Part shown: positions 1-6,920 of the stretch, in pieces
How the letters are laid out: each line of letters starts with the position of its first letter
How positions within the stretch are numbered: the stretch's first letter is position 1
From: an uncultured delta proteobacterium
Lineage (GTDB): Bacteria; Desulfobacterota; Desulfomonilia; Desulfomonilales; Desulfomonilaceae
Assembly (NCBI GenBank): GCA_963747865.1
Contig: CAVVHK010000021.1
Coordinates: forward strand, 1-24,000
Length of the DNA stretch: 24,000 bases
Direction: 5' to 3'
Notes under the pieces: generated by a model
What the model saw: only the letters and a program-made list of their open reading frames with translations
Told to the model about the DNA's origin: nothing
The model's database searches: none
Translations under genes and position numbers: made by a program

Positions 1-3
1 TTA

Positions 4-348
4 CTACCAAACCCTTAAAACCTTCCAGCCTTGTTTTTTAAGCTTAGCCCTATTGTTCCTGTCGCGCAAAATATTCGACTGGATTTTCCCACCCCGGAAT
101 CTTTTTTAGGCAACCTGCTCTTTGTTTTGTTAAAATCATATCCGTGCCAAAAGTCCCCATCTATAAAAATGGCTATTTTTTCCTTTTGGCAAAGCTATGT
201 CCGGGCTTCCGGCGCACTTCTTATAATGCCTTTGGAAATATACTTTGCGCCTCCTAAGCTCCCTGAAAACCAAGCTTTCAATTTTAGTATTCTTGGAGCG
301 TACTTTAGACATGATGTCGCTCCTTTTTTTCTTGCTGAAAACATCCAT
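4..348 (-). pseudogene. vsr: Very-short-patch repair endonuclease (Vsr), reading frame broken at least twice
   Basis: ORF 136..348 reads KKRSDIMSKVRSKNTKIE...GSPDIALPK, the Vsr N-terminal half. The rest of the family signature appears only after changing frame: IAIFIDGDFWHG (about 176..141) and FRGGKIQSNILRDRNNRAKLKKQGWKVLRVW, then TAG at 4..6. It lies next to a C5 methyltransferase, the classical dcm-vsr pairing. Confidence 0.8.
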
Positions 349-381
349 AAAATGATTTATGCCCTGTGGATAATTACCCGC

Positions 382-411
382 TTGGATATTCGGTTTTTAT
401 TCGGGTATAAT
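382..411 (+). promoter_or_regulatory. Sigma-70-type promoter for the LexA-like gene, with a direct-repeat candidate operator in the spacer
   Basis: TTGGAT (382-387), 18-nt spacer, TATAAT (406-411), about 29 nt upstream of ATG 440. The spacer contains ATTCGG twice (388-393 and 399-404), 11 nt apart. Confidence 0.5.
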
Positions 412-439
412 GAAATAATTATATCATAATAAAAATGCT

Positions 440-1037
440 ATGGAAACATTAACAAAAAAGCAAAAACAAATTTTCGACTTCTTCAACTCATATATAGAAG
501 ACAATGGCATATCCCCTACCTTTAGGAGATAGGAAAAAATTTAAGCTGAAAGCGATATCTACTGTCCATGAACATATCGGGATGATTAAAAAAAAAGGCT
601 ATCTTTTAAAAACCGAACAGCTCTCAAAGAAGTTTCGCGCCAAAAAAAGAAAACAAATCTAGTTATAGAAATACCTATAGTCGGGCGAATCCATGCCGGC
701 CAGCCGATTGAGGCAATTGAAAATATGAGGATACGGTTTCGGTAGTCAATCCGAAAATAAAAAAAGCTAACGGCTATTACGCCCTGCGCGTTGCGGGAAA
801 TAGCATGATCGATGAAGGAATTTTCGACGGCGATATTGTTGTCATCAAAAAACAATCTGTTGCAGACAATGGCCAGACCGTCGTGGCTATCATCGACGAA
901 AATCAGGCCACTCTTAAAAAACTCTATCGGGAGAAAAACAGGATAAGGCTCGAACCGAGGAATCCAAATATGCTTCCAATTTTCAGGAAAGATGTTGAGA
1001 TCAGGGGCGTCGTCGTGCAGGTAATAAGCGATATTAA
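440..1037 (+). pseudogene. LexA-like repressor (winged HTH plus S24 peptidase domain), frame broken about 3 times; C-terminal end uncertain
   Basis: Frame-hopping translation from ATG 440 gives four segments. They are METLTKKQKQIFDFFNSYIEDNGISPTF; then IGKKFKLKAISTVHEHIGMIKKKGYLL (HTH); then IPIVGRIHAGQPIEAIEN (Ala-Gly cleavage-site region); then YYALRVAGNSMIDEGIFDGDIVVIKK...ATLKKLY (S24 Ser and Lys motifs, ORF 805..). Breaks lie near 530, 650 and 725. As written, the last frame runs on into the methyltransferase without a stop. A TAA at 1035-1037 is reachable in another frame. Confidence 0.75.
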
Positions 1038-2013
1038 TGACAAGCCCGAACAAGCTTCAACTAAAAAAACAAAACATGGATTTAAAACGCTGGATCTTTT
1101 TGCCGGAGTAGGCGGAATAAGATTGGGATTTGAAAAGGCCGGATTCAAAACGGTATTTGCAAACGATTTTGACGCGCAGTGCAAGAATACATATGATTTG
1201 AATTTCAAAAAATCAAAGCTTGTCGTAGAAGACATAAGGAAAGTTGGGATCGACGATCTTCCTGAATTTGATTTTTTGCTGGGAGGTTTCCCCTGCCAGG
1301 CTTTTTCCATCGCCGGATACAGGAAGGGCTTTGACGATGAAAAAGGCCGGGGAAATTTATTCTTTGATATTGCAAGAATTTTAGATGCTCGCAAGCCTGA
1401 AGGATTCTTGCTGGAAAATGTGAAAAATTTAAGAAGCCACGACGGAGGAAAACATTTAAAATAATTCAGGAAGCTCTGGAAGGCCTCGGATACCATATTA
1501 AAACAAAAGTTCTGAACAGCATGGAATATGGAAATGTTCCGCAAAATCGCGAGCGCATTTATATCGTGGGATTTAAAAACGCAGAATACCGCGATAAGTT
1601 TGAATTTCCGAATCCATCAAAACTCACAACAAAAATTACAGACCTCCTAGAAAAAAATGTTAATGAAAAATATTATTATAATGGAAAGCCCTTGTTTGAG
1701 AAGCTAAAAAATTTCGTAAAGGACGAAGGAAAAGTCTATCAATGGCGCAGGCAATATGTCCGAGAGAATAAAAGCGGAGTCTGCCCGACTTTACTGCAAA
1801 CATGGGAATGGGAGGCCACAACGTGCCGATTATAAAAGATGGAAACGGCATAAGGAAGCTTACTCCCTTGGAATGCTTTAGAATCCAGGGCTTCCCCGAG
1901 GATTTCCAATTGCCTAAAATATCAGACTCAGCTTTTATAAGCAAGCAGGAAACTCTGTAAGCGTCCCTGTGCTTGAAGCTGTAGCAAAACAAATGATGAG
2001 GGCTATGTCGTAG
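1037..2013 (+). pseudogene. DNA (cytosine-5)-methyltransferase, frame broken at least 3 times
   Basis: The C5-MTase motifs occur in order across three frames. They are DLFAGVGG (I), GGFPCQAFS (IV), ENVKNL (VI), PQNRERIYIVGF (VIII), CPTL(T)ANMGMGGHNVP (IX region) and QAGNSVSVPV (X). The gene ends MMRAMS then TAG at 2011-2013. Breaks lie near 1455 (A-run), 1790 and 1935 (T-run). A candidate ATG at 1037 overlaps a TAA (TAATG) but is in a different frame from the body. Confidence 0.85.
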
Positions 2014-2528
2014 CTACCAGACCTTCACGGATTTTGCCAAAGGTTTTATTCCATATCTCGCAATTATCTCTTTCTTGATGCCAAACCTCGGACGCCTTTT
2101 CTGCTCCTGCTGGTCGGTGAATTTCTCTTTTTTATTAAGGCTTGGTTTTTTATATATTTATTAGGAATCAAATATACGTCGAAATATCCATCGCATTTCC
2201 CATCGTTGTAAAAATCAAGCAAGTACAAATCGTCCCATTTGGATTTCGGCCCGAACGTGGTCAAATCTTTCTCAATGCTGCAAGGCTTAATCTGTTGGGC
2301 TTTCCCTGTTTTTAAATCAAAAGTATCAAATGATCCGGCAATGCCCTTATTCGTTCCCTTGATTTTAAGATATCTCCCCGCCCCGGACCATAAACAAAAA
2401 GCAACTTCGGATAATCCTTCAGGAAAATTCGGCTCCCTGGCTTTATAATCCCTTAAGCCAAGCTTGAGGTTTTTCCAAATATCAAAAATGTCCTTCCATT
2501 TCTTGCCGTCAGTTTTATCAAAATGCAT
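2014..2528 (-). pseudogene. Putative type II restriction endonuclease (PD-(D/E)xK-like), C-terminal frameshift
   Basis: ORF 2064..2537 is convergent with the methyltransferase and meets it tail to tail at 2013/2014. It contains SFDTFD...CSIEKD, compatible with a D...(D/E)xK nuclease motif. After the T/A-run near 2131 a second frame continues KKEKFTDQQEQKRRPRFGIKKEIIARYGIKPLAKSVKVW to a stop at 2014-2016. The first ATG is at 2528; the track start at 2537 is TTG. The assignment rests mainly on context. Confidence 0.5.
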
Positions 2529-2762
2529 TAATTGCAAATTGCATTTCTGGCCGAAAACTTTGGTTCGTGTTCTTGAATTTCCATAAATTGTTTAAAATGA
2601 TTATTAGTTGAATTATCATATTCACTCTATTACTAAAAATGGCCGCTTTCAAGTGCTTTTGAGCTGGCGGGTTTTGAGGCACAGGGTCTGGACTAATAGG
2701 CACAATTGCGTCATTCCTTGTACTTGAGGGGTAAACTATTAACCAACCCTTCAAGCAAAAAC

Positions 2763-4086
2763 ATGGAACAAATAACACAAATAAAAAACAGTCTGCCGTC
2801 CCCTCCTCCTGTGATTATCGGGAAAATAAAGTACTGCCTTTATGCCAGGAAAAGCACAGAATCAGAGGAACGGCAGGTAATGTCGATAGATTCGCAGATA
2901 AAAGAAATGTTGCAGGTCGCAGAACGGGATGGGCTGGAAATCGTGGAAATCCGGCGAGAATCGCACTCTGCTAAAAATTCCAGCGAGAGGCCTGTGTTCA
3001 ATTCAATAGTTGAGGATATTAGATTAGGAAAATTCAACGGCATAATGACATGGGCGCCGGACAGGCTTTCCAGAAACGCTGGAGATTTAGGATCGCTAGT
3101 GGATTTGATGGATCAAAAATTATTGGCAGAGATAAGAACGCATAGCCAGATATTCACAAATAATCCGAATGAAAAATTTCTGCTAATGATATTGGGCAGT
3201 CAGGCAAAACTGGAAAATGATAACAGAGGTATTAACGTAAGGCGTGGCCTTCGTACCCGGTGTGAAATGGGCTTGCGGCCGGGCACAGCGCCAACAGGAT
3301 ATTTGAACGAAAAAAGGATTGATCGAAAATGCCAGGTTGCGCTGGATCTAGAACGAGCCCCGATTATCAAAAAAATGTTTGAAAAAGTGGCATTCGAAAA
3401 TTGGTCTGGCATAAAGCTTTATCACTGGATGAGATTTGAAATTAATTTCCGTACAATACATCAGCACCATCTTTCATTAAGTAATATCTACTTAATTTTA
3501 AGAAATACTTTTTACTACGGCGTTTTTGAATATCCAGAACACAGCGGCAACTGGTACAACGGAAAACACGAACCGATTATTGATAAAGATTTATTTGATA
3601 AGGTTCAACACCAACTAAAAGTAGATTATGTCAGAACAGAAAAGGAATTTGCTTTCACAAAACTTATAACTTGCGGACACTGCGGATCGGGAATTTCGGC
3701 TAGAGAAAAATTCAAAAAATTAAAAAATGGTAAGACATTGAAATTTATTTATTACGGATGCAGTAAAGTCCAGAAATTTACATTGCCACGAAGGCTATCT
3801 TCGGGAAGAGGATTTAATTAAACAACTGATGGATATTATTGATAAAATGGACTGAATGATATTGAAGTAAAACACAAATTCCCAAGAAGAGGTAAAAAGA
3901 TACAATATATTCCAAAAACGTGTATTAAAAAATGGAGATAATGAACAACCGCAAAAAGACGTAGATATTAAGAGTTATATGAAATATTTACTCAAGGAGG
4001 GCAGTATATCAGAAAAACGAGAAATACTTTCCTGCATAAAAAATAAGATTGTGATTAGAAAGAAAATTTTAAGCATAGAACAATAG
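2763..4086 (+). pseudogene. Large serine recombinase (resolvase/invertase catalytic domain, recombinase domain and zinc ribbon), C-terminal third frame-broken
   Basis: ORF 2706..3821 shows YARKSTESEE...SIDSQ (catalytic Ser region), DRLSRN, the recombinase-domain YYGVFEY and a CGHCG...YYGC zinc ribbon. The C-terminus continues in other frames: RNLHCHEGYLREEDLIKQLMDIIDKMD, then LNDIEVKHKF, then QEEVKRYNIFQKRVL...ILSIEQ, with TAG at 4084-4086. The likely start is ATG 2763 (MEQITQIK). Confidence 0.85.
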
Positions 4087-4091
4087 AAAAT

Positions 4092-4120
4092 AAAAACAGA
4101 GTTTTTTGAGCTCTGTTTTT
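4092..4120. terminator. Bidirectional hairpin terminator between the convergent recombinase and maf genes
   Basis: AAAAACAGAG (4092-4101) pairs with CTCTGTTTTT (4111-4120) across a 9-nt loop. The A-run and T-run flanks would serve either strand. Confidence 0.6.
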
Positions 4121-4135
4121 AACTTTTGAACTTGG

Positions 4136-4719
4136 CTACAATTTTTCTAAAACGTTAACACCAAAATTTTTGAGCTCTTCCACTAACGGTAACATTGGCA
4201 GCCCTACAACATTGAAATAATCCCCCTCAATCTTTTCTACAAAAATTCCTCCGCGATGTTGCATGGCATAGGCGCCGGCTTTATTCACGGCTCGCCCAAA
4301 GAAATATAGTCATCAATATCTTTTTCCGAAATATCTGTAATAAAAACTTTTGTTTCTACCGATCTGGTAGCTTGTTTATTTGTTTCCGTATCGATTATTG
4401 TAAATCCAGTAATAACAGAATGCGCTTTTCCGCTGAGTTTATTTAGCATAATTTTAGCATTTTCTTTTGTATGCGGTTTGCCAAGAATTTCCTTATCTAA
4501 AATACAAAAAGTATCGGCTGCAATAATAATGGAATTTTCGTGCCTCTTTGCCACATCTTTTGCCTTTCCCAAAGATAAAAATTCCGCCAATTTACTTGGC
4601 TCCATTTTTAAGGTCATATCTTCTTCGTAATTACTTGGGTCCACTTCAAATTCCAAGCCAATTTGATTTAATAAATCTCTTCTTCCCTGAGAGCCTGACG
4701 CTAAAATTATTTTTTTCAT
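4136..4719 (-). pseudogene. maf: Maf-like nucleoside triphosphate pyrophosphatase, single frameshift near 4285
   Basis: ORF 4285..4719 reads MKKIILASGSQGRRDLLNQIGLEFEV...GKAHSVITGF...DYISLGEP. The conserved C-terminus VNKAGAYAMQHRGGIFVEKIEGDYFNVVGLPMLPLVEEL follows in another frame down to TAG at 4136-4138. Confidence 0.85.
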
Positions 4720-4742
4720 ATTTTATATTTTTAAATTATTTT

Positions 4743-4753
4743 ATTATATCACA
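4743..4753 (-). promoter_or_regulatory. Extended -10 promoter for maf
   Basis: The minus strand reads TGTGATATAAT (TGnTATAAT) about 24 nt upstream of ATG 4719. No Shine-Dalgarno motif lies between them. Confidence 0.45.
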
Positions 4754-4756
4754 AAT

Positions 4757-4783
4757 AAAAAACCCGCGGATAAACCTTGCGGG
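4757..4783 (-). terminator. Rho-independent terminator of the hammerhead-containing operon
   Basis: The minus strand reads CCCGC-aaggtttatcc-GCGGG followed by TTTTTTATTT. It lies about 40 nt after the stop (4821-4823) of the receiver-like gene. Confidence 0.65.
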
Positions 4784-4820
4784 AAGTTGATGAGCTCAAA
4801 CTTCTAAGCTTTTTTTGAAG

Positions 4821-5509
4821 TTATTCAGCGCGATCAACGATGAGTCGCTGGAGAATCCCTCCCCAGTTTTTGCCGCCTTCGATGCGATCGTGCCGCACCA
4901 TGGTGAACTGCCGTATTTTCCTTCCCAGCTTCTGACTCAAGAAAGTATCGGGAATCAGTTCGCCCGTGTGTTCATCCAACCACACAAGGCTGAAGCCGTT
5001 GGTGCAAATCAAGCGAATGCCCTTTGCCTTGCTGGTCCCGGAGAAACAGTACGAGTGCGTCGAACGCACGATGGTCATGGTGACCCATATCCGTTACTAC
5101 GGCAACATTTTTGACGCCAGCATGAATTGCCAACAGGGCAATGATCGCACCCAGGGGCATCTCTTGTCCAGCAAAGCGCTCACCCTTTTCGCCAAGCTTT
5201 GCCGTGATGCGGGCATAAGCAGATACGGTCAAGACGACGTCGAAATTCGGATAAGTCGTGGCCTTCTCCATGCATTCCTGATAGTATTGCATGCGAATCG
5301 GTTTCTCCTGCGAATCCTTGCAGTCATACGGATCGGTGCTTCCGTACTTCTCCTTAAAAAAACGCTTCCGCGCGCTCACGATTCTTTTTCGGCACAAGTG
5401 CCGCCTGCGCTTGATCATAATTGCCGACGATCGTGAGATCGTGACCCTTCAGAGTCAACTCAGCCGACTTGCGGTGGACAGGACTGTCATCAAACACCAA
5501 AATCTTCAT
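4821..5509 (-). pseudogene. CheY-like receiver-fold protein of unknown function, frame broken at least twice
   Basis: ATG 5509 is preceded by AAGGAG. The N-terminus MKILVFDDSPVHRKSAELTLKGHDLTIVGNYDQAQAAL looks like receiver strand beta1 with its acidic pair. The gene continues through ORF 4972..5418 (break in a T7 run near 5355) and ORF 4821..5078 (break near 5050). After NFDVVLT, the receiver-like motif DLLMPAS is readable only one frame off. Confidence 0.55.
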
Positions 5510-5537
5510 CACACTTCTCCTTATTCAGTTTTCCAAA

Positions 5538-5594
5538 GAACCCTGTTTCGTCCTTTCGGACTCATCAGCGAGGATACACATCCGAACAAGACCC
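5538..5594 (-). ncRNA. Hammerhead ribozyme motif, type III topology (copy 1)
   Basis: Minus-strand RNA: GGGUCUUGU-U-CGGAUGUGUAUCCUCG-CUGAUGA-G-UCC-GAAA-GGA-C-GAA-ACAGGGUUC. The CUGAUGA and GAA cores are intact. Stem II is 4 bp closed by a GAAA tetraloop. Stem III is open, formed by GGGUCUUGU with ACAGGGUUC and several G-U pairs. The cleavage triplet is GUU, and stem I is GGAU/AUCC plus a closing C-G with a 2-nt bulge. Confidence 0.8.
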
Positions 5595-5648
5595 ATATCT
5601 TCTTGACATGGGCTGTGATTTTTTAAGTATCACAACTTCTTTCAGTCG

Positions 5649-5804
5649 TCACTTTTTCTTTGGAGTCATCCTCCGAAAGAAATCGCGGACTTGATTCGCC
5701 AGCTCGATGATCTTTTGATCAGTGAGTTCTTTCTTGGGAATCATGAAGACATCAGCAGCGATGCGCGCCAGACGCTTGTCTTCCTTTGTCGGTTTTGCTT
5801 TCAT
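5649..5804 (-). CDS. Small hypothetical protein (51 aa)
   Basis: It is absent from the ORF track because it is under 60 aa. ATG 5804 is preceded by AAGGAG at good spacing. Translation: MKAKPTKEDKRLARIAADVFMIPKKELTDQKIIELANQVRDFFRRMTPKKK, stop at 5649-5651. It lies between the two ribozyme-led genes on the same strand. Confidence 0.45.
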   Translation of the reverse strand: MKAKPTKEDKRLARIAADVFMIPKKELTDQKIIELANQVRDFFRRMTPKKK

Positions 5805-5840
5805 CTAAAGCTCCTTGGTTTGAGTAATTACTGTAATTGG

Positions 5841-6451
5841 TTACGATGCCCGAATGGCCAACAATGTATCGCACCATTGAAGTTGATTCCATTTGTCAGC
5901 CTCACTGAGACCTGCAACAAGACATTTGCATTTGTTGTCACAACCGGTTGCTGGATAATGTACATATCCGGCACCCTGACCAGGCCCCGACCACAAGTTG
6001 CCGAGCGCCTTAACGCTGAACATTTCATCTTTCCAATGTTGAGCGCCGAAAGCCAGGATGCTGATCCCTCGCAGGCCCTAGGCCCATGTGCCACAAGCGC
6101 TTAATCGCCTCATCAATCTTCATGCGCTCTGCATACTCATCGCCGCAGATAATAAGAAAAGCTTCGAATTCGACGATTCCGTTGCCGTTTATCGAAAATT
6201 TCTTGGTGCCGAAATCTTTGTCGACAGAGCTATATCCTCCGGCGGCGATCATCTCTTCAATGGACATGGAGTAATCAATCCTAATTGTGAAGCGCCTCTT
6301 AGTCTTGCGTTCAATCTTCACAATCTGTTCGGCGATGCAGTCCATAACTCCCTTCGCCTTCGAATGAAGAACATTGACGCATATGAGTTCCACCCTTTGC
6401 CTTCACCGAAGCTTCGATCTCAGTCCAAATATTCTTCAATTCTTTTGACAT
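5841..6451 (-). pseudogene. Hypothetical protein (~200 aa) of unknown function, frame broken at least twice
   Basis: ATG 6451 (MSKELKNIWTEIEASVKAKG) joins ORF 6025..6393 (...SIEEMIAAGGYSSVDKDFGTKKFSINGNGIVEFEAFLI...EAIKRLWHMGL). That joins ORF 5841..6023 after a break near 6065 (...ISILAFGAQHWKDEMFSVKALGNLW...LLAIRAS). I do not recognise a named family. Confidence 0.5.
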
Positions 6452-6488
6452 GATTCAAATTCCCCTATAGTTTTTTTCAAAGAACTTT

Positions 6489-6541
6489 TCCTGTTTCGCT
6501 CTTTTGAGCTCATCAGCGAGAGCACGCACTCTCGGACAAGA
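6489..6541 (-). ncRNA. Hammerhead ribozyme motif, type III topology (copy 2)
   Basis: Minus-strand RNA: UCUUGU-C-CGAGAG-UGCGUG-CUCUCG-CUGAUGA-G-CUC-AAAA-GAG-C-GAA-ACAGGA. All invariant core positions are present. Stem I is a perfect 6 bp with a hexaloop, stem II is 4 bp with an AAAA loop, and open stem III is 6 bp. The cleavage triplet is GUC. Confidence 0.88.
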
Positions 6542-6920
6542 GCCCACTCACAAGACAACTCCCGGCGATCCACAGGACCCAAGCGCTATCCATCTCAACC
6601 CAAGGAACCTCTTTTTCGGAGGACGGAATCCGCGCAGGCGCCACTCAAACGCAAGGACACATGGTCGCTCACGCCTGCCCCCGTTCATATAAAGATACGA
6701 AGCTATTTACGAACCGCTCTACTCGTCTCGTGCGTTAGCGAAGGCCTTGCAGGGCTTTCGCCGGTAAATCAATTATGAAGATGGCGCCCAAACGTCGCAT
6801 TTGCGCCCTTTGAAGCGCTCCCGCTTTAAATTTGAAATTGGCCCGAGGGAAGTATTGCAGCCGGCTCGAAGCCGTAATTTCGATATTTCGGGAATTCGCC
6901 CGCGGGTGTTCACACTGCAA

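What the first reader, a model, noticed from the sequence alone, without database searches (positions are those of the whole stretch)
5510..6541. A repeated ribozyme-leader-SD cassette placed directly in front of two ORFs of one operon
The similarity between the two loci extends beyond the ribozyme into the downstream leader. Copy 1 reads ...CGAAACAGGGTTCTTTGGAAAACTGAATAAGGAGAAGTGTG-ATG. Copy 2 reads ...CGAAACAGGAAAAGTTCTTTGAAAAAAACTATAGGGGAATTTGAATC-ATG. Both end 28-37 nt before a start codon. This looks like a portable module of about 85-95 nt that couples self-cleavage to translation initiation of the next cistron. It could uncouple the stability or stoichiometry of individual cistrons. The middle gene (5649-5804) has no such module. 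The genes served are of unknown function, so the biological purpose is open.
Basis: inference. Interest (0 to 1): 0.65.

Follow-up and report, generated by a model that had tools for sequence, protein, structure and literature searches.

The report
Hammerhead ribozyme cassettes between operon genes
Two self-cutting hammerhead RNAs sit just upstream of two genes of one small minus-strand operon; this arrangement is already described for phage-like operons, and this copy looks partly decayed.

Summary
Two type III hammerheads lie on the minus strand: HH2 at 6543-6486 and HH1 at 5593-5538. Each ends 38 or 32 nt before a start codon. Both are followed by GTTCTTTG plus an A run.

Comparative data show this layout is common. 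Among 249 related hammerheads from phage-like and Patescibacteria contigs:
- A stable hairpin usually abuts stem III.
- An ATG-ORF starts 20-30 nt downstream in 35% of cases (about 4% at random positions).
- Copies within one locus share flanks.

The closest ortholog (L310) keeps the leader almost unchanged, while its ribozyme stems differ by compensatory changes.

GTTCTTT is not ribozyme-specific. It is about 10-fold enriched upstream of Shine-Dalgarno sites in related genomes and often follows a plain hairpin. The "cassette" is therefore a hammerhead joined to a lineage-typical leader.

The idea of processing polycistronic RNA into separately stable mRNAs was published in 2011 and remains untested.

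In this window, HH1 lacks 2 nt of stem I and its ribozyme fold is disfavoured. Both flanking genes carry several frameshifts.

Verdict: a new member of a known kind, of moderate interest.

The parts
6486..6543 (-). HH2, a type III hammerhead. Stem III 5' strand is 6541-6536, C17 is 6535, and predicted cleavage is at 6535|6534. Stem I is CGAGAG/CUCUCG with loop UGCGUG. CUGAUGAG is at 6516-6509. Stem II is CUC-AAAA-GAG. CGAAAC-AGG ends at 6490.
   Evidence: Rfam RF00008 gives 41.1 bits, E 7.7e-7. CM R1 gives 77.0 bits. The minimum-energy fold of the 58-mer is the hammerhead fold, at -18.0 kcal/mol.
6452..6489 (-). Leader 2, 38 nt. It consists of an AAAA linker, the motif GTTCTTTGAAAAAAAC (6485-6470), the SD-like AGGGGA (6466-6461), and then ATG 6451.
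   Evidence: Sequence, alignment with copy 1 and relatives, and motif position.
5841..6451 (-). ORF A, read in three frames (6451-6311, 6393-6025, 6023-5841). It is an uncharacterised protein with only distant homologs and no Pfam match.
   Evidence: ORF list. The word-based homolog search found only the window's own protein. phmmer against representatives found 69 distant hits of about 200-350 aa. There was no Pfam match for the fragments or for ten of those homologs.
5649..5804 (-). ORF B, 51 aa, with its own AAGGAG Shine-Dalgarno and no ribozyme in front.
5592..5633 (-). Two hairpins directly 5' of HH1. Hairpin A is GUGAUACUUAAAAAAUCAC (5633-5615). Hairpin B is CCCAUGUC-AAGAA-GAUAUGGG (5612-5592) and abuts stem III.
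   Evidence: RNAfold. Homologous double hairpins occur in L311 (3705-3745) and L014. A family-wide excess of an abutting upstream hairpin was measured.
5538..5593 (-). HH1, a type III hammerhead with an intact core. CUGAUGAG is at 5568-5561, stem II is UCC-GAAA-GGA, U17 is 5585, and predicted cleavage is at 5585|5584. The 5' strand of stem I reads CGGA where the family has a 6-nt strand (CGAGGA would match the 3' strand UCCUCG).
   Evidence: Rfam gives 33.1 bits. CM R1 gives 64.6 bits. The alignment shows the 2-nt gap. The hammerhead fold is -5.1 kcal/mol against a competing minimum-energy fold of -15.0; restoring AG gives -14.8.
5510..5541 (-). Leader 1, 32 nt. It contains the motif GTTCTTTGGAAAAC (5541-5528) and the SD AAGGAG (5522-5517), and is followed by ATG 5509.
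   Evidence: Sequence. The leader in ortholog locus L310 is nearly identical: ACAGGGATTCTTTGAAAACTGAATAAGGAGAATGTGTGATG.
4821..5509 (-). ORF C, a receiver-like (CheY-like) protein family of about 230-250 aa. The window copy changes frame at least five times relative to its homologs.
   Evidence: 105 homologs, nearly all from Patescibacteria MAGs. Supported by the alignment and by tblastn with P0001/P0003, which shows pieces in three frames.
4757..4783 (-). Terminator-like hairpin CCCGC..GCGGG plus a T6 run, at the end of the operon.
   Evidence: Read from the sequence. The automatic scan missed it because the loop is 11 nt.

Best explanation
The locus is a small minus-strand operon: HH2 - ORF A - ORF B - hairpins - HH1 - ORF C - terminator. 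Two type III hammerheads are built into the 5' untranslated regions of ORF A and ORF C.

**Proposed mechanism (inferred)**
1. As the RNA is made, each hammerhead folds and cuts itself.
2. The upstream piece ends in one or two stem-loops, then 6-7 nt and a 2',3'-cyclic phosphate. This shields it from 3' exonucleases.
3. The downstream piece begins with a 5'-OH and the compact ribozyme body. A short, mostly unpaired leader, the Shine-Dalgarno site and the start codon follow.
4. That 5' end cannot be sensed by decay enzymes that depend on a 5'-monophosphate. The ribosome-binding region is also freed from whatever lies upstream.
5. The result is separate mRNAs with their own stabilities and a standardised 5' end, as with the engineered RiboJ insulator.

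**The shared leader**
The GUUCUUU(G)AAAA element is a separate, lineage-typical leader element. In related genomes it follows either a plain hairpin or a hammerhead. Its own role is not known; candidates are a binding site for a protein, a ribosome standby site or an RNase site.

**What is shown**
- Ribozyme identity and covariation.
- The positional rules.
- Conservation of the flanks.

**What is inferred**
- Cleavage in vivo.
- End protection.
- Any effect on expression.

In this window the system is probably degraded, because HH1 is weakened and ORF A and ORF C are frameshifted.
For: **The hammerheads are real**
- Hammerhead identity of both copies rests.
- On 122 family members, 95.7% of cells pair. 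There are 659 double-sided changes against 186 in shuffles. The covariation score is 0.904 against at most 0.12 for slid controls.

**Positional rules in 249 unique type III hammerheads** from 289 sequence sources (288 fetched loci plus the window)
- The next ATG-ORF starts 20-30 nt after stem III in 76 of 220, against about 9 of 220 at random positions. For 15-60 nt the figures are 56% against 19%.
- A same-strand ORF ends within 200 nt upstream in 162 of 195, with a median stop-to-ribozyme distance of 36 nt.
- The 36 nt upstream fold to a mean of -10.6 kcal/mol, against -5.6 for control windows and -5.1 for shuffles (p about 1e-24).
- The hairpin abuts stem III with a 0-nt gap in 102 of 143.
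- Leaders are A/T-rich.

**Modularity**
- Within-locus flank similarity exceeds between-locus similarity.

**Orthology**
- L310, whose ORF C homolog is 72% identical, has the same hairpin-hammerhead-leader layout.
- Its leader is nearly identical, while its stems I and II and its hairpin differ by compensatory changes.

**GTTCTTT is a separate element**
- It occurs 13 times against 1.3 expected in the 60 nt upstream of SD-bearing ORFs. The peak is at -30 to -20.
- In 14 cases it follows a hairpin and precedes SD plus a start codon, against 4 of 437 for permuted motifs.

**Published support**
- Perreault 2011 (PMC3088659) showed cleavage of clustered prophage hammerheads in vitro and in vivo.
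- RiboJ raises expression of insulated genes (PMC6206723).
Against: - There are no transcript data for this or any related locus. Cleavage, end chemistry and stability effects are not shown.
- The hammerhead fold of HH1 is about 10 kcal/mol worse than a competing fold.
- In the 146-nt context of HH1, the minimum-energy structure (z = -4.5) pairs the cleavage-site strand with the leader, and pairs AUCACA with the start-codon region, instead of forming the ribozyme.
- ORF A and ORF C are frameshifted, so the unit may not function here.
- Only about 8 of 48 genomic loci with an ORF C homolog carry a hammerhead within 3.5 kb. Only 2 of 48 carry one directly upstream. The ribozyme is therefore dispensable for these genes.
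- No sigma-70-like promoter was found upstream of HH2, so the origin of the transcript is unknown.
Confidence: 0.6

Rival explanations
1. This is a relic. The operon in this window is a decaying, horizontally acquired or mis-assembled piece of Patescibacteria-type DNA. The ribozyme-leader repeats are inherited sequence that no longer does anything here.
For: - ORF C changes frame at least five times relative to P0001/P0003, and ORF A is read in three frames.
- HH1 has a 2-nt deletion and an unfavourable ribozyme fold.
- The whole stretch 1-6700 holds fragmentary genes: an S24 peptidase/C5 methylase fusion ORF, a truncated serine recombinase and a split Maf. Genes beyond 6900 are intact.
- GC content jumps from about 38% to about 50% near 4800.
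- Homologs of ORF C are nearly all from Patescibacteria, whereas the right half of the window encodes sigma-54 activators, a sulfatase and rubrerythrin.
Against: - HH2 is perfectly canonical and its minimum-energy fold is the ribozyme.
- Both leaders and both SD/start regions are intact.
- The frameshifts could be sequencing errors. One lies in a T7 run and one in an A run.
- This rival concerns present-day function only and does not dispute what the cassette is.
Confidence: 0.35
2. The two cuts release a 950-nt RNA (ORF A plus ORF B) whose ends re-form a complete hammerhead across the junction. The RNA is then ligated into a circular mRNA, by the ribozyme itself or by RtcB, as in retrozymes and viroid-like RNAs.
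For: - The 5' strand of stem III of HH1 pairs over 6 bp with the 3' strand of stem III of HH2.
- Across 33 adjacent hammerhead pairs, such chimeric stems reach at least 4 bp in 82%, against 34% for random between-locus pairs. Median spacing is 904 nt.
- Perreault 2011 raised circular or spliced products as a possibility (PMC3088659).
Against: - Compatibility of adjacent stems is equally expected from simple duplication of cassettes.
- Perreault 2011 looked for circular or spliced products and found none (PMC3088659).
- The strong rule that a start codon follows 20-30 nt after the ribozyme, and the protective hairpin upstream, fit linear mRNA processing.
- HH1 is weakened here.
Confidence: 0.08
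3. The cassette is a regulated switch. The leader, with its GUUCUUU motif, competes with the ribozyme fold or masks the Shine-Dalgarno site, so that cleavage or translation responds to a signal.
For: - GUUCUUU can pair over 7 bp with AAAGRRC (loop II plus the 3' strand of stem II) in both window copies. This is read from the sequence.
- In copy 2, RNAfold pairs AAGUUCUUU with the SD-like GGGGAAUUU.
- In copy 1, the long-context minimum-energy fold is a non-ribozyme structure with z = -4.5.
Against: - Leader-to-ribozyme duplex energy in the 26 motif-bearing cassettes equals that of shuffled leaders (-8.52 against -8.49 kcal/mol).
- The variable positions of the motif do not covary with stem II or loop II types (tabulated).
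- The motif occurs just as well after plain hairpins with no ribozyme.
- The copy 2 context fold is not unusual (z = -1.28).
Confidence: 0.1

Closest known systems
Clustered hammerhead ribozymes flanking genes in prophage and phage operons (Perreault et al. 2011, PMC3088659)
   Same: - Several co-oriented hammerheads lie in intergenic regions and flank single genes or short gene blocks of unknown function.
- The proposed role is processing long transcripts into gene-length mRNAs.
- There is a nearby recombinase.
   Different: - The published examples are mostly type II, or mixed types, in Clostridium, Agrobacterium and Azorhizobium prophages.
- Here both are type III, of a subfamily with loop I UGYGYR and loop II RAAA.
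- The gene set is typical of Patescibacteria.
- The passages I retrieved from that paper by term search, and my searches of the held library, did not mention a regular upstream hairpin, a fixed distance to the start codon, or shared flanks.
Rfam RF00008, Hammerhead_3 (type III hammerhead of viroids, satellites and genomes)
   Same: - Identical catalytic core and three-stem topology, open at stem III.
- Cleavage triplets GUC and GUU.
   Different: - Both copies score below Rfam's gathering threshold (41.1 and 33.1 against 48.5).
- Only 2 hammerhead matches (L032 and L229) reached that threshold across 20 related loci, several of which carry more than one such hammerhead.
- They are embedded in mRNA leaders of a DNA genome, not in a circular RNA replicon.
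RiboJ and related synthetic ribozyme insulators (sTRSV hammerhead plus hairpin placed before an RBS; PMC6206723)
   Same: - This is what it works like. A hammerhead in the 5' UTR removes upstream context and leaves a 5'-OH, a structured 5' end and a defined leader before the RBS.
- In several natural relatives a hairpin follows the ribozyme, as in RiboJ.
   Different: - RiboJ is engineered and is derived from a plant satellite RNA.
- The natural cassettes add an upstream 3'-end hairpin, and they lie between cistrons as well as at the operon start.
Retrozymes and viroid-like circular RNAs with tandem type III hammerheads
   Same: - Two co-oriented type III hammerheads lie about 1 kb apart.
- Their stem III strands are mutually compatible.
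   Different: - Those elements are non-coding or replicon RNAs and are shown to be circular.
- Here the excised segment is an ordinary coding operon segment with SD-led ORFs, and nothing shows circularity.
PeSL (promoter-early stem-loop) regulatory cassettes of T4-type phages (recalled from memory: Arbiol et al. 2010; not read here)
   Same: Short repeated regulatory modules, each a stem-loop plus an expression signal, recur in front of many small ORFs and share sequence within a genome.
   Different: - PeSLs carry a sigma-70 early promoter and no ribozyme.
- No sigma-70-like promoter was found in the leaders here.

Membership tests
Hammerhead ribozyme, type III | Conserved catalytic core: C3 U4 G5 A6 N7 G8 A9, G12 A13 A14, an A15.1-U16.1 pair, and position 17 not G. 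| tested here: met
   Both copies read CUGAUGA...GAAA with G10.1-C11.1 and A15.1-U16.1. Position 17 is C in HH2 and U in HH1. A15.1-U16.1 is invariant in 116 of 116 family members.
Hammerhead ribozyme, type III | Three helices around the core, with stems I and II closed by loops and stem III open, supported by compensatory changes. | tested here: met
   HH2 has stem I of 6 bp, stem II of 4 bp and stem III of 6 bp. On 122 relatives, 14 of 16 pairs show double-sided changes and 95.7% of cells pair. HH1 meets this only partly: its stem I is reduced to 3 bp, a 2-nt bulge and 1 bp.
Hammerhead ribozyme, type III | Score at or above the Rfam RF00008 gathering threshold (48.5 bits). | tested here: not met
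   The scores are 41.1 and 33.1 bits, with E-values of 7.7e-7 and 1.4e-4. The shortfall reflects short loops compared with the viroid-based seed. A family-specific model gives 77.0 and 64.6 bits.
Hammerhead ribozyme, type III | Self-cleavage at the predicted phosphodiester, giving a 2',3'-cyclic phosphate and a 5'-OH. | not testable with these tools
   This needs in vitro transcription or end-specific RNA-seq. Thermodynamics favour the ribozyme fold for HH2 and disfavour it for HH1.
Clustered phage/prophage hammerheads (Perreault 2011) | Two or more hammerheads, co-oriented with the genes, in intergenic regions that flank single genes or short gene blocks. | tested here: met
   HH2 precedes ORF A, and HH1 lies between ORF B and ORF C. 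All are on the minus strand. The same layout occurs in L004, L311, L032 and about 30 other loci.
Clustered phage/prophage hammerheads (Perreault 2011) | A phage, prophage or integrase context. | tested here: inconclusive
   A serine recombinase (2706-3821, truncated) and a C5-methylase fragment lie nearby. The operon proteins match no PHROG family. The hammerhead subtype is abundant in IMG/VR viral contigs, with more than 120 loci. The closest relatives are in Patescibacteria MAG contigs.
RiboJ-like 5' UTR insulator (functional analogy, not homology) | The ribozyme lies immediately upstream of a short leader plus RBS, so that cleavage defines the 5' end of the mRNA. | tested here: met
   The leaders are 38 and 32 nt long. 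Family-wide, start codons peak at 20-30 nt. The effect on expression was not tested.
Retrozyme / viroid-like circular RNA | A unit-length RNA between two hammerheads that is circularised. | not testable with these tools
   Only the prerequisite was tested and met: a compatible chimeric stem III of 6 bp. Non-coding content, another feature of retrozymes, is not met, because ORFs A and B lie between the sites.

The most novel reading that the evidence does not exclude
Hairpin-hammerhead-leader is a widespread, exchangeable intercistronic cassette of phages and Patescibacteria, in effect a natural RiboJ.

- In the Patescibacteria-type lineage, the hammerhead is interchangeable with a plain stem-loop placed in front of a common GUUCUUU leader element.
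- That element would be the recognition site of a still unknown RNA-binding factor or RNase that controls a whole set of small genes.
- Compatible stem III strands of neighbouring cassettes may additionally allow excised mRNAs to circularise.
Probability: 0.25. Interest if true: 0.6.

Novelty: new member of a known kind. Interest (0 to 1): 0.38.

Why it matters
What genomic hammerheads do in bacteria and phages has been an open question since 2011. These loci give concrete anatomical rules: a stem-loop abutting stem III, a start codon 20-30 nt downstream, and flanks shared within a genome. They also give a natural comparison, because the same leader occurs behind either a ribozyme or a plain hairpin. 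Together these turn the "differential mRNA stability" idea into specific reporter and RNA-end-mapping experiments. They also place hammerheads in Patescibacteria-type gene clusters, and I found no paper linking the two. The window copy itself adds little, because it is probably damaged.

Tried and rejected
1. **Leader pairs with stem-loop II (anti-ribozyme switch or pseudoknot).** Duplex energies equal those of shuffles. The motif variants do not covary with stem II types (tabulated).
2. **GUUC extends stem III.** This holds only in the two window copies, not in L014, L030 and the others.
3. **The motif is a sigma-70 or Bacteroidetes-type promoter.** No consistent -10/-35 spacing appears on inspection, and the scan found no minus-strand promoter near either leader.
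4. **Hairpin plus UUCUUU is an intrinsic terminator.** The 3-5-nt spacer and, in the ribozyme case, the weak stem III make this unlikely. I left it as a remark only.
5. **Other RNA families in the flanks.** Rfam found none in the window or in 20 related loci.
6. **Exact cassette pattern in IMG/VR.** There were 0 hits.
   - A looser pattern with TCTTTGA found 21 loci.
   - These turned out to be type I hammerheads, in which TCTTTGA is the cleavage site plus stem I.
   - That resemblance was created by my own search pattern.
7. **ORF C relatives in viral contigs.** None were found.
8. **ORF A homologs by word search.** Only the window's own protein was found.
9. **Pfam and PHROGs on all operon ORFs.** Nothing significant was found.
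10. **Structure of the ORF C family.** The model is confident (pLDDT 94.5), but the PDB gives only weak receiver-domain matches (best E 2e-3, TM about 0.3).
11. **BLAST of cassette 2 against GenBank phages.** The only hit inspected was a weak match lying inside a CDS of a Synechococcus phage, and 46 of the 47 hits were weak matches of this kind.
12. **Locating the window on its 347.8-kb contig through P0106.** The protein is not on record.
Full report
**1. What is in the window**

All the features lie on the minus strand.

- Rfam's type III hammerhead model matches 6542-6488 (41.1 bits, E 7.7e-7) and 5592-5540 (33.1 bits, E 1.4e-4). Both are below the curated threshold of 48.5, so a default Rfam scan reports nothing.
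- The core pattern CTGATGA..GAAA occurs only at these two places, giving 4 nested hits against 0.51 expected.
- HH2 is canonical.
  - Stem III is UCUUGU/ACAGGA and the cleavage triplet is GUC, cutting at 6535|6534.
  - Stem I is CGAGAG/CUCUCG with loop UGCGUG, and stem II is CUC-AAAA-GAG.
  - Its minimum-energy fold is the hammerhead.
- HH1 has an intact core and stem II (UCC-GAAA-GGA) and the triplet GUU, cutting at 5585|5584.
  - The 5' strand of its stem I reads CGGA opposite UCCUCG, a 2-nt deletion relative to every relative.
  - Its ribozyme fold costs -5.1 kcal/mol, against -15.0 for a competing fold. Restoring AG gives -14.8.
- The gene order is HH2, a 38-nt leader, ORF A (ATG 6451), ORF B (5804-5649, with its own SD), two hairpins (5633-5615 and 5612-5592), HH1, a 32-nt leader, ORF C (ATG 5509), and a terminator-like hairpin with a T run (4783-4757).
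- The two leaders share GTTCTTTG followed by an A run directly after stem III.

**2. The hammerheads are genuine and belong to a large subfamily**

- I built a covariance model from nine copies. It finds 13 strong matches in the window plus 48 genomic loci that encode ORF C homologs, all co-oriented with that gene.
- On 122 aligned matches:
  - 95.7% of cells form standard pairs;
  - 14 of 16 pairs show changes on both sides;
  - 659 cells carry such changes, against 186 in shuffles;
  - the covariation score is 0.904, against at most 0.12 when partners are slid.

**3. Anatomy of the cassette across the family**

A simple descriptor found 249 unique type III hammerheads in the 289 sequences held at that point.

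- The next ATG-ORF of at least 40 aa starts 20-30 nt after stem III in 76 of 220 cases, against about 9 of 220 for random positions. For 15-60 nt the figures are 56% against 19%.
- A same-strand ORF ends within 200 nt upstream in 162 of 195 cases. The median distance from stop codon to ribozyme is 36 nt.
- The 36 nt upstream fold to a mean of -10.6 kcal/mol, against -5.6 for control windows and -5.1 for shuffles (p about 1e-24). The hairpin abuts stem III without a gap in 102 of 143 cases.
- Leaders are A/T-rich.
- Cassettes within one locus share both flanks more than cassettes of different loci do (downstream p 6e-10, upstream p 9e-7).
- Distinct flank types exist:
  - a marine-phage type with the hairpin GGTGTCTTCAAAGACACC;
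  - a GGGGGCTTCGGCCCCC type;
  - the Patescibacteria type, to which the window belongs.

The typical unit is therefore: stop codon, hairpin, hammerhead, about 25 nt of leader, start codon.

**4. The window's relatives**

*ORF C.*
- It belongs to a family of about 230-250 aa with no Pfam domain.
- It has 105 homologs, nearly all from Patescibacteria MAGs.

*L310, the closest ortholog* (a 1.27-kb contig; protein 72% identical).
- It has the same layout.
- A different but equivalent hairpin (GGGAGTTCTCAAAAAACTCCC) abuts stem III.
- Stems I and II are compensated (CCAGGG/CCCTG and CCG-AAAA-CGG).
- The leader is nearly identical to copy 1: ACAGGGATTCTTTGAAAACTGAATAAGGAGAATGTGTGATG.

*L311 and L312* (protein 51% identical).
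- One hammerhead is followed by AAGTTCTTTGAAAAAAG, matching window copy 2 over GTTCTTTGAAAAAA. A 21-bp perfect hairpin follows, about 130 nt before the gene.
- A second hammerhead lies after the gene. It is preceded by a double hairpin homologous to the window's hairpins A and B.

**5. What the leader motif is**

- TCTTT lies 7-14 nt after CGAAA in 26 cassettes with different stem III sequences.
- GTTCTTTGA lies within 20 nt 3' of a hammerhead in 7 of its 55 occurrences, where about 0.09 would be expected.
- The motif is not tied to the ribozyme.
  - In the Patescibacteria-type loci, GTTCTTT occurs 13 times against 1.3 expected in the 60 nt upstream of SD-bearing ORFs. It peaks at -30 to -20.
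  - In 14 cases it directly follows a stable hairpin and precedes SD plus a start codon, against 4 of 437 for permuted motifs.
- Locus L030 repeats the module at least eight times with no hammerhead. The module is TTGAAAA..TTTTGAT, a covarying hairpin, three nucleotides, GTTCTTT and SD.
- At the orthologous position upstream of ORF C homologs, a hammerhead is present in only 2 of 48 loci.
- In many cassettes the motif is followed by a long hairpin rather than an ORF.

I conclude that the repeated "cassette" is a composite. A hammerhead occupies the slot that a plain stem-loop holds elsewhere, in front of a lineage-typical leader element whose own function is unknown.

Pairing of the motif with stem-loop II was tested and found to be no better than chance.

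**6. Mechanism**

The best-supported reading is self-cleaving intercistronic and 5'-UTR processing. The hammerhead cuts, the upstream fragment keeps a 3' hairpin, and the downstream mRNA starts with a 5'-OH, the ribozyme body and a defined leader.

- The positional statistics support this, but the chemistry and the consequences are inferred.
- The idea is already published: Perreault 2011 (PMC3088659) and the Weinberg 2019 review (PMC6765202).
- It parallels the engineered RiboJ insulator (PMC6206723).

A circular-RNA alternative cannot be excluded. The stem III strands of adjacent hammerheads are compatible in 82% of pairs, against 34% at random, and over 6 bp in the window. Duplication explains that equally well, and Perreault et al. 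did not detect circles.

**7. State of this copy**

- ORF C changes frame at least five times relative to P0001 and P0003.
- ORF A is split over three frames.
- HH1 is weakened.
- The region 1-6700 holds fragmentary genes and shows a GC jump near 4800, next to intact genes of a different kind of organism.
- Either the stretch is a decaying or foreign island, or it is a poorly polished or chimeric part of the assembly. I could not decide which.

**8. Verdict**

- These are two further members of a known kind, hammerheads flanking genes in phage-like operons. They lie in a little-described lineage context.
- The useful addition is that ribozyme and leader are separable modules.
- Interest is moderate.

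Noticed in passing
window 1-6900: GC content jumps from about 38% (1-4800) to about 50%. The left part holds fragmentary genes: an ORF at 805-1464 that joins the C-terminal half of an S24 peptidase to the first third of a C5 DNA methylase, a serine recombinase at 2706-3821 that ends early, and Maf split into 4719-4285 and 4288-4136. Genes beyond 6900 (AhpC, rubrerythrin, QueC, a sigma-54 activator, a sulfatase) are intact. This is either a decaying foreign island or an assembly or polishing problem.
   Followed up: partly
window 4821-5509 (ORF C) and P0001-P0105: This is a receiver-like protein family of about 230-250 aa with no Pfam domain. It has an N-terminal MKILVFDD, an LTDL acidic site, and a nearly invariant HHxHPASA motif. 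It is found almost only in Patescibacteria MAGs. The AlphaFold model is confident (pLDDT 94.5), but the PDB gives only weak receiver-domain matches (best E 2e-3, TM about 0.3).
   Followed up: partly
L030 900-7050: At least eight genes in a row are each preceded by the same module: TTGAAAA..TTTTGAT, a hairpin whose stem covaries (GGGGAA/TTCCCC, GGGAC/GTCCC, GGAACGA/TCGTTCC), 2-4 nt, GTTCTTT, and then SD and ATG. There is no ribozyme in these copies.
   Followed up: partly
L057, L085, L095, L133, L148, L207, L212, L071 (viral and metagenome contigs): This is a marine-phage subfamily of the same hammerhead. It has a sequence-conserved hairpin, (G)GTGTCTTYAAAGACAC(C), abutting stem III, and an AAACCA... 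leader without an SD before the ATG.
   Followed up: partly
L311 2820-2890; also L032 4460-4530, L243, L258, L261, L264, L266, L268: Near-perfect hairpins of 18-22 bp lie 2-6 nt after the hammerhead plus the GTTCTTTGAAA motif, in place of an immediate ORF. Their role is unknown.
   Followed up: no
L027, L031, L032, L033 (about 70 nt upstream of the ORF C homolog): A conserved, structured 5' UTR reads ...CTGGCAC.TGCCACACCCGCTCCTCGGGG....CTGGGGATGGAG. Its CUCC could pair with the GGAG Shine-Dalgarno site, and it is preceded by GTTCTTT. It may be a translational control element.
   Followed up: no
L289-L309 (IMG/VR contigs): These loci carry type I hammerheads of the form ATCAAA-CTGATGAG-..-CGAAA-hairpin-TC|TTTGAT, placed 16-24 nt before the start codon in most of these loci. 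Cleavage there removes the whole ribozyme and leaves only a roughly 25-nt leader. This is the opposite topology with the same placement.
   Followed up: partly
window 2772-2789 and 4746-4763: An 18-nt direct repeat (ATAWCACAAATAAAAAAC, 94% identical) brackets the serine recombinase and Maf stretch. The second copy overlaps the operon terminator. It is AT-rich and may be a chance match.
   Followed up: no
window 5505-5650, minus strand: The 146-nt context of HH1 folds unusually well (-44.1 kcal/mol, z = -4.5) into a non-ribozyme structure. In it, CUUGUUCGG pairs with CUGAAUAAG of the leader, and AUCACA (5619-5614) pairs with UGUGAU across the GTG/ATG start.
   Followed up: no
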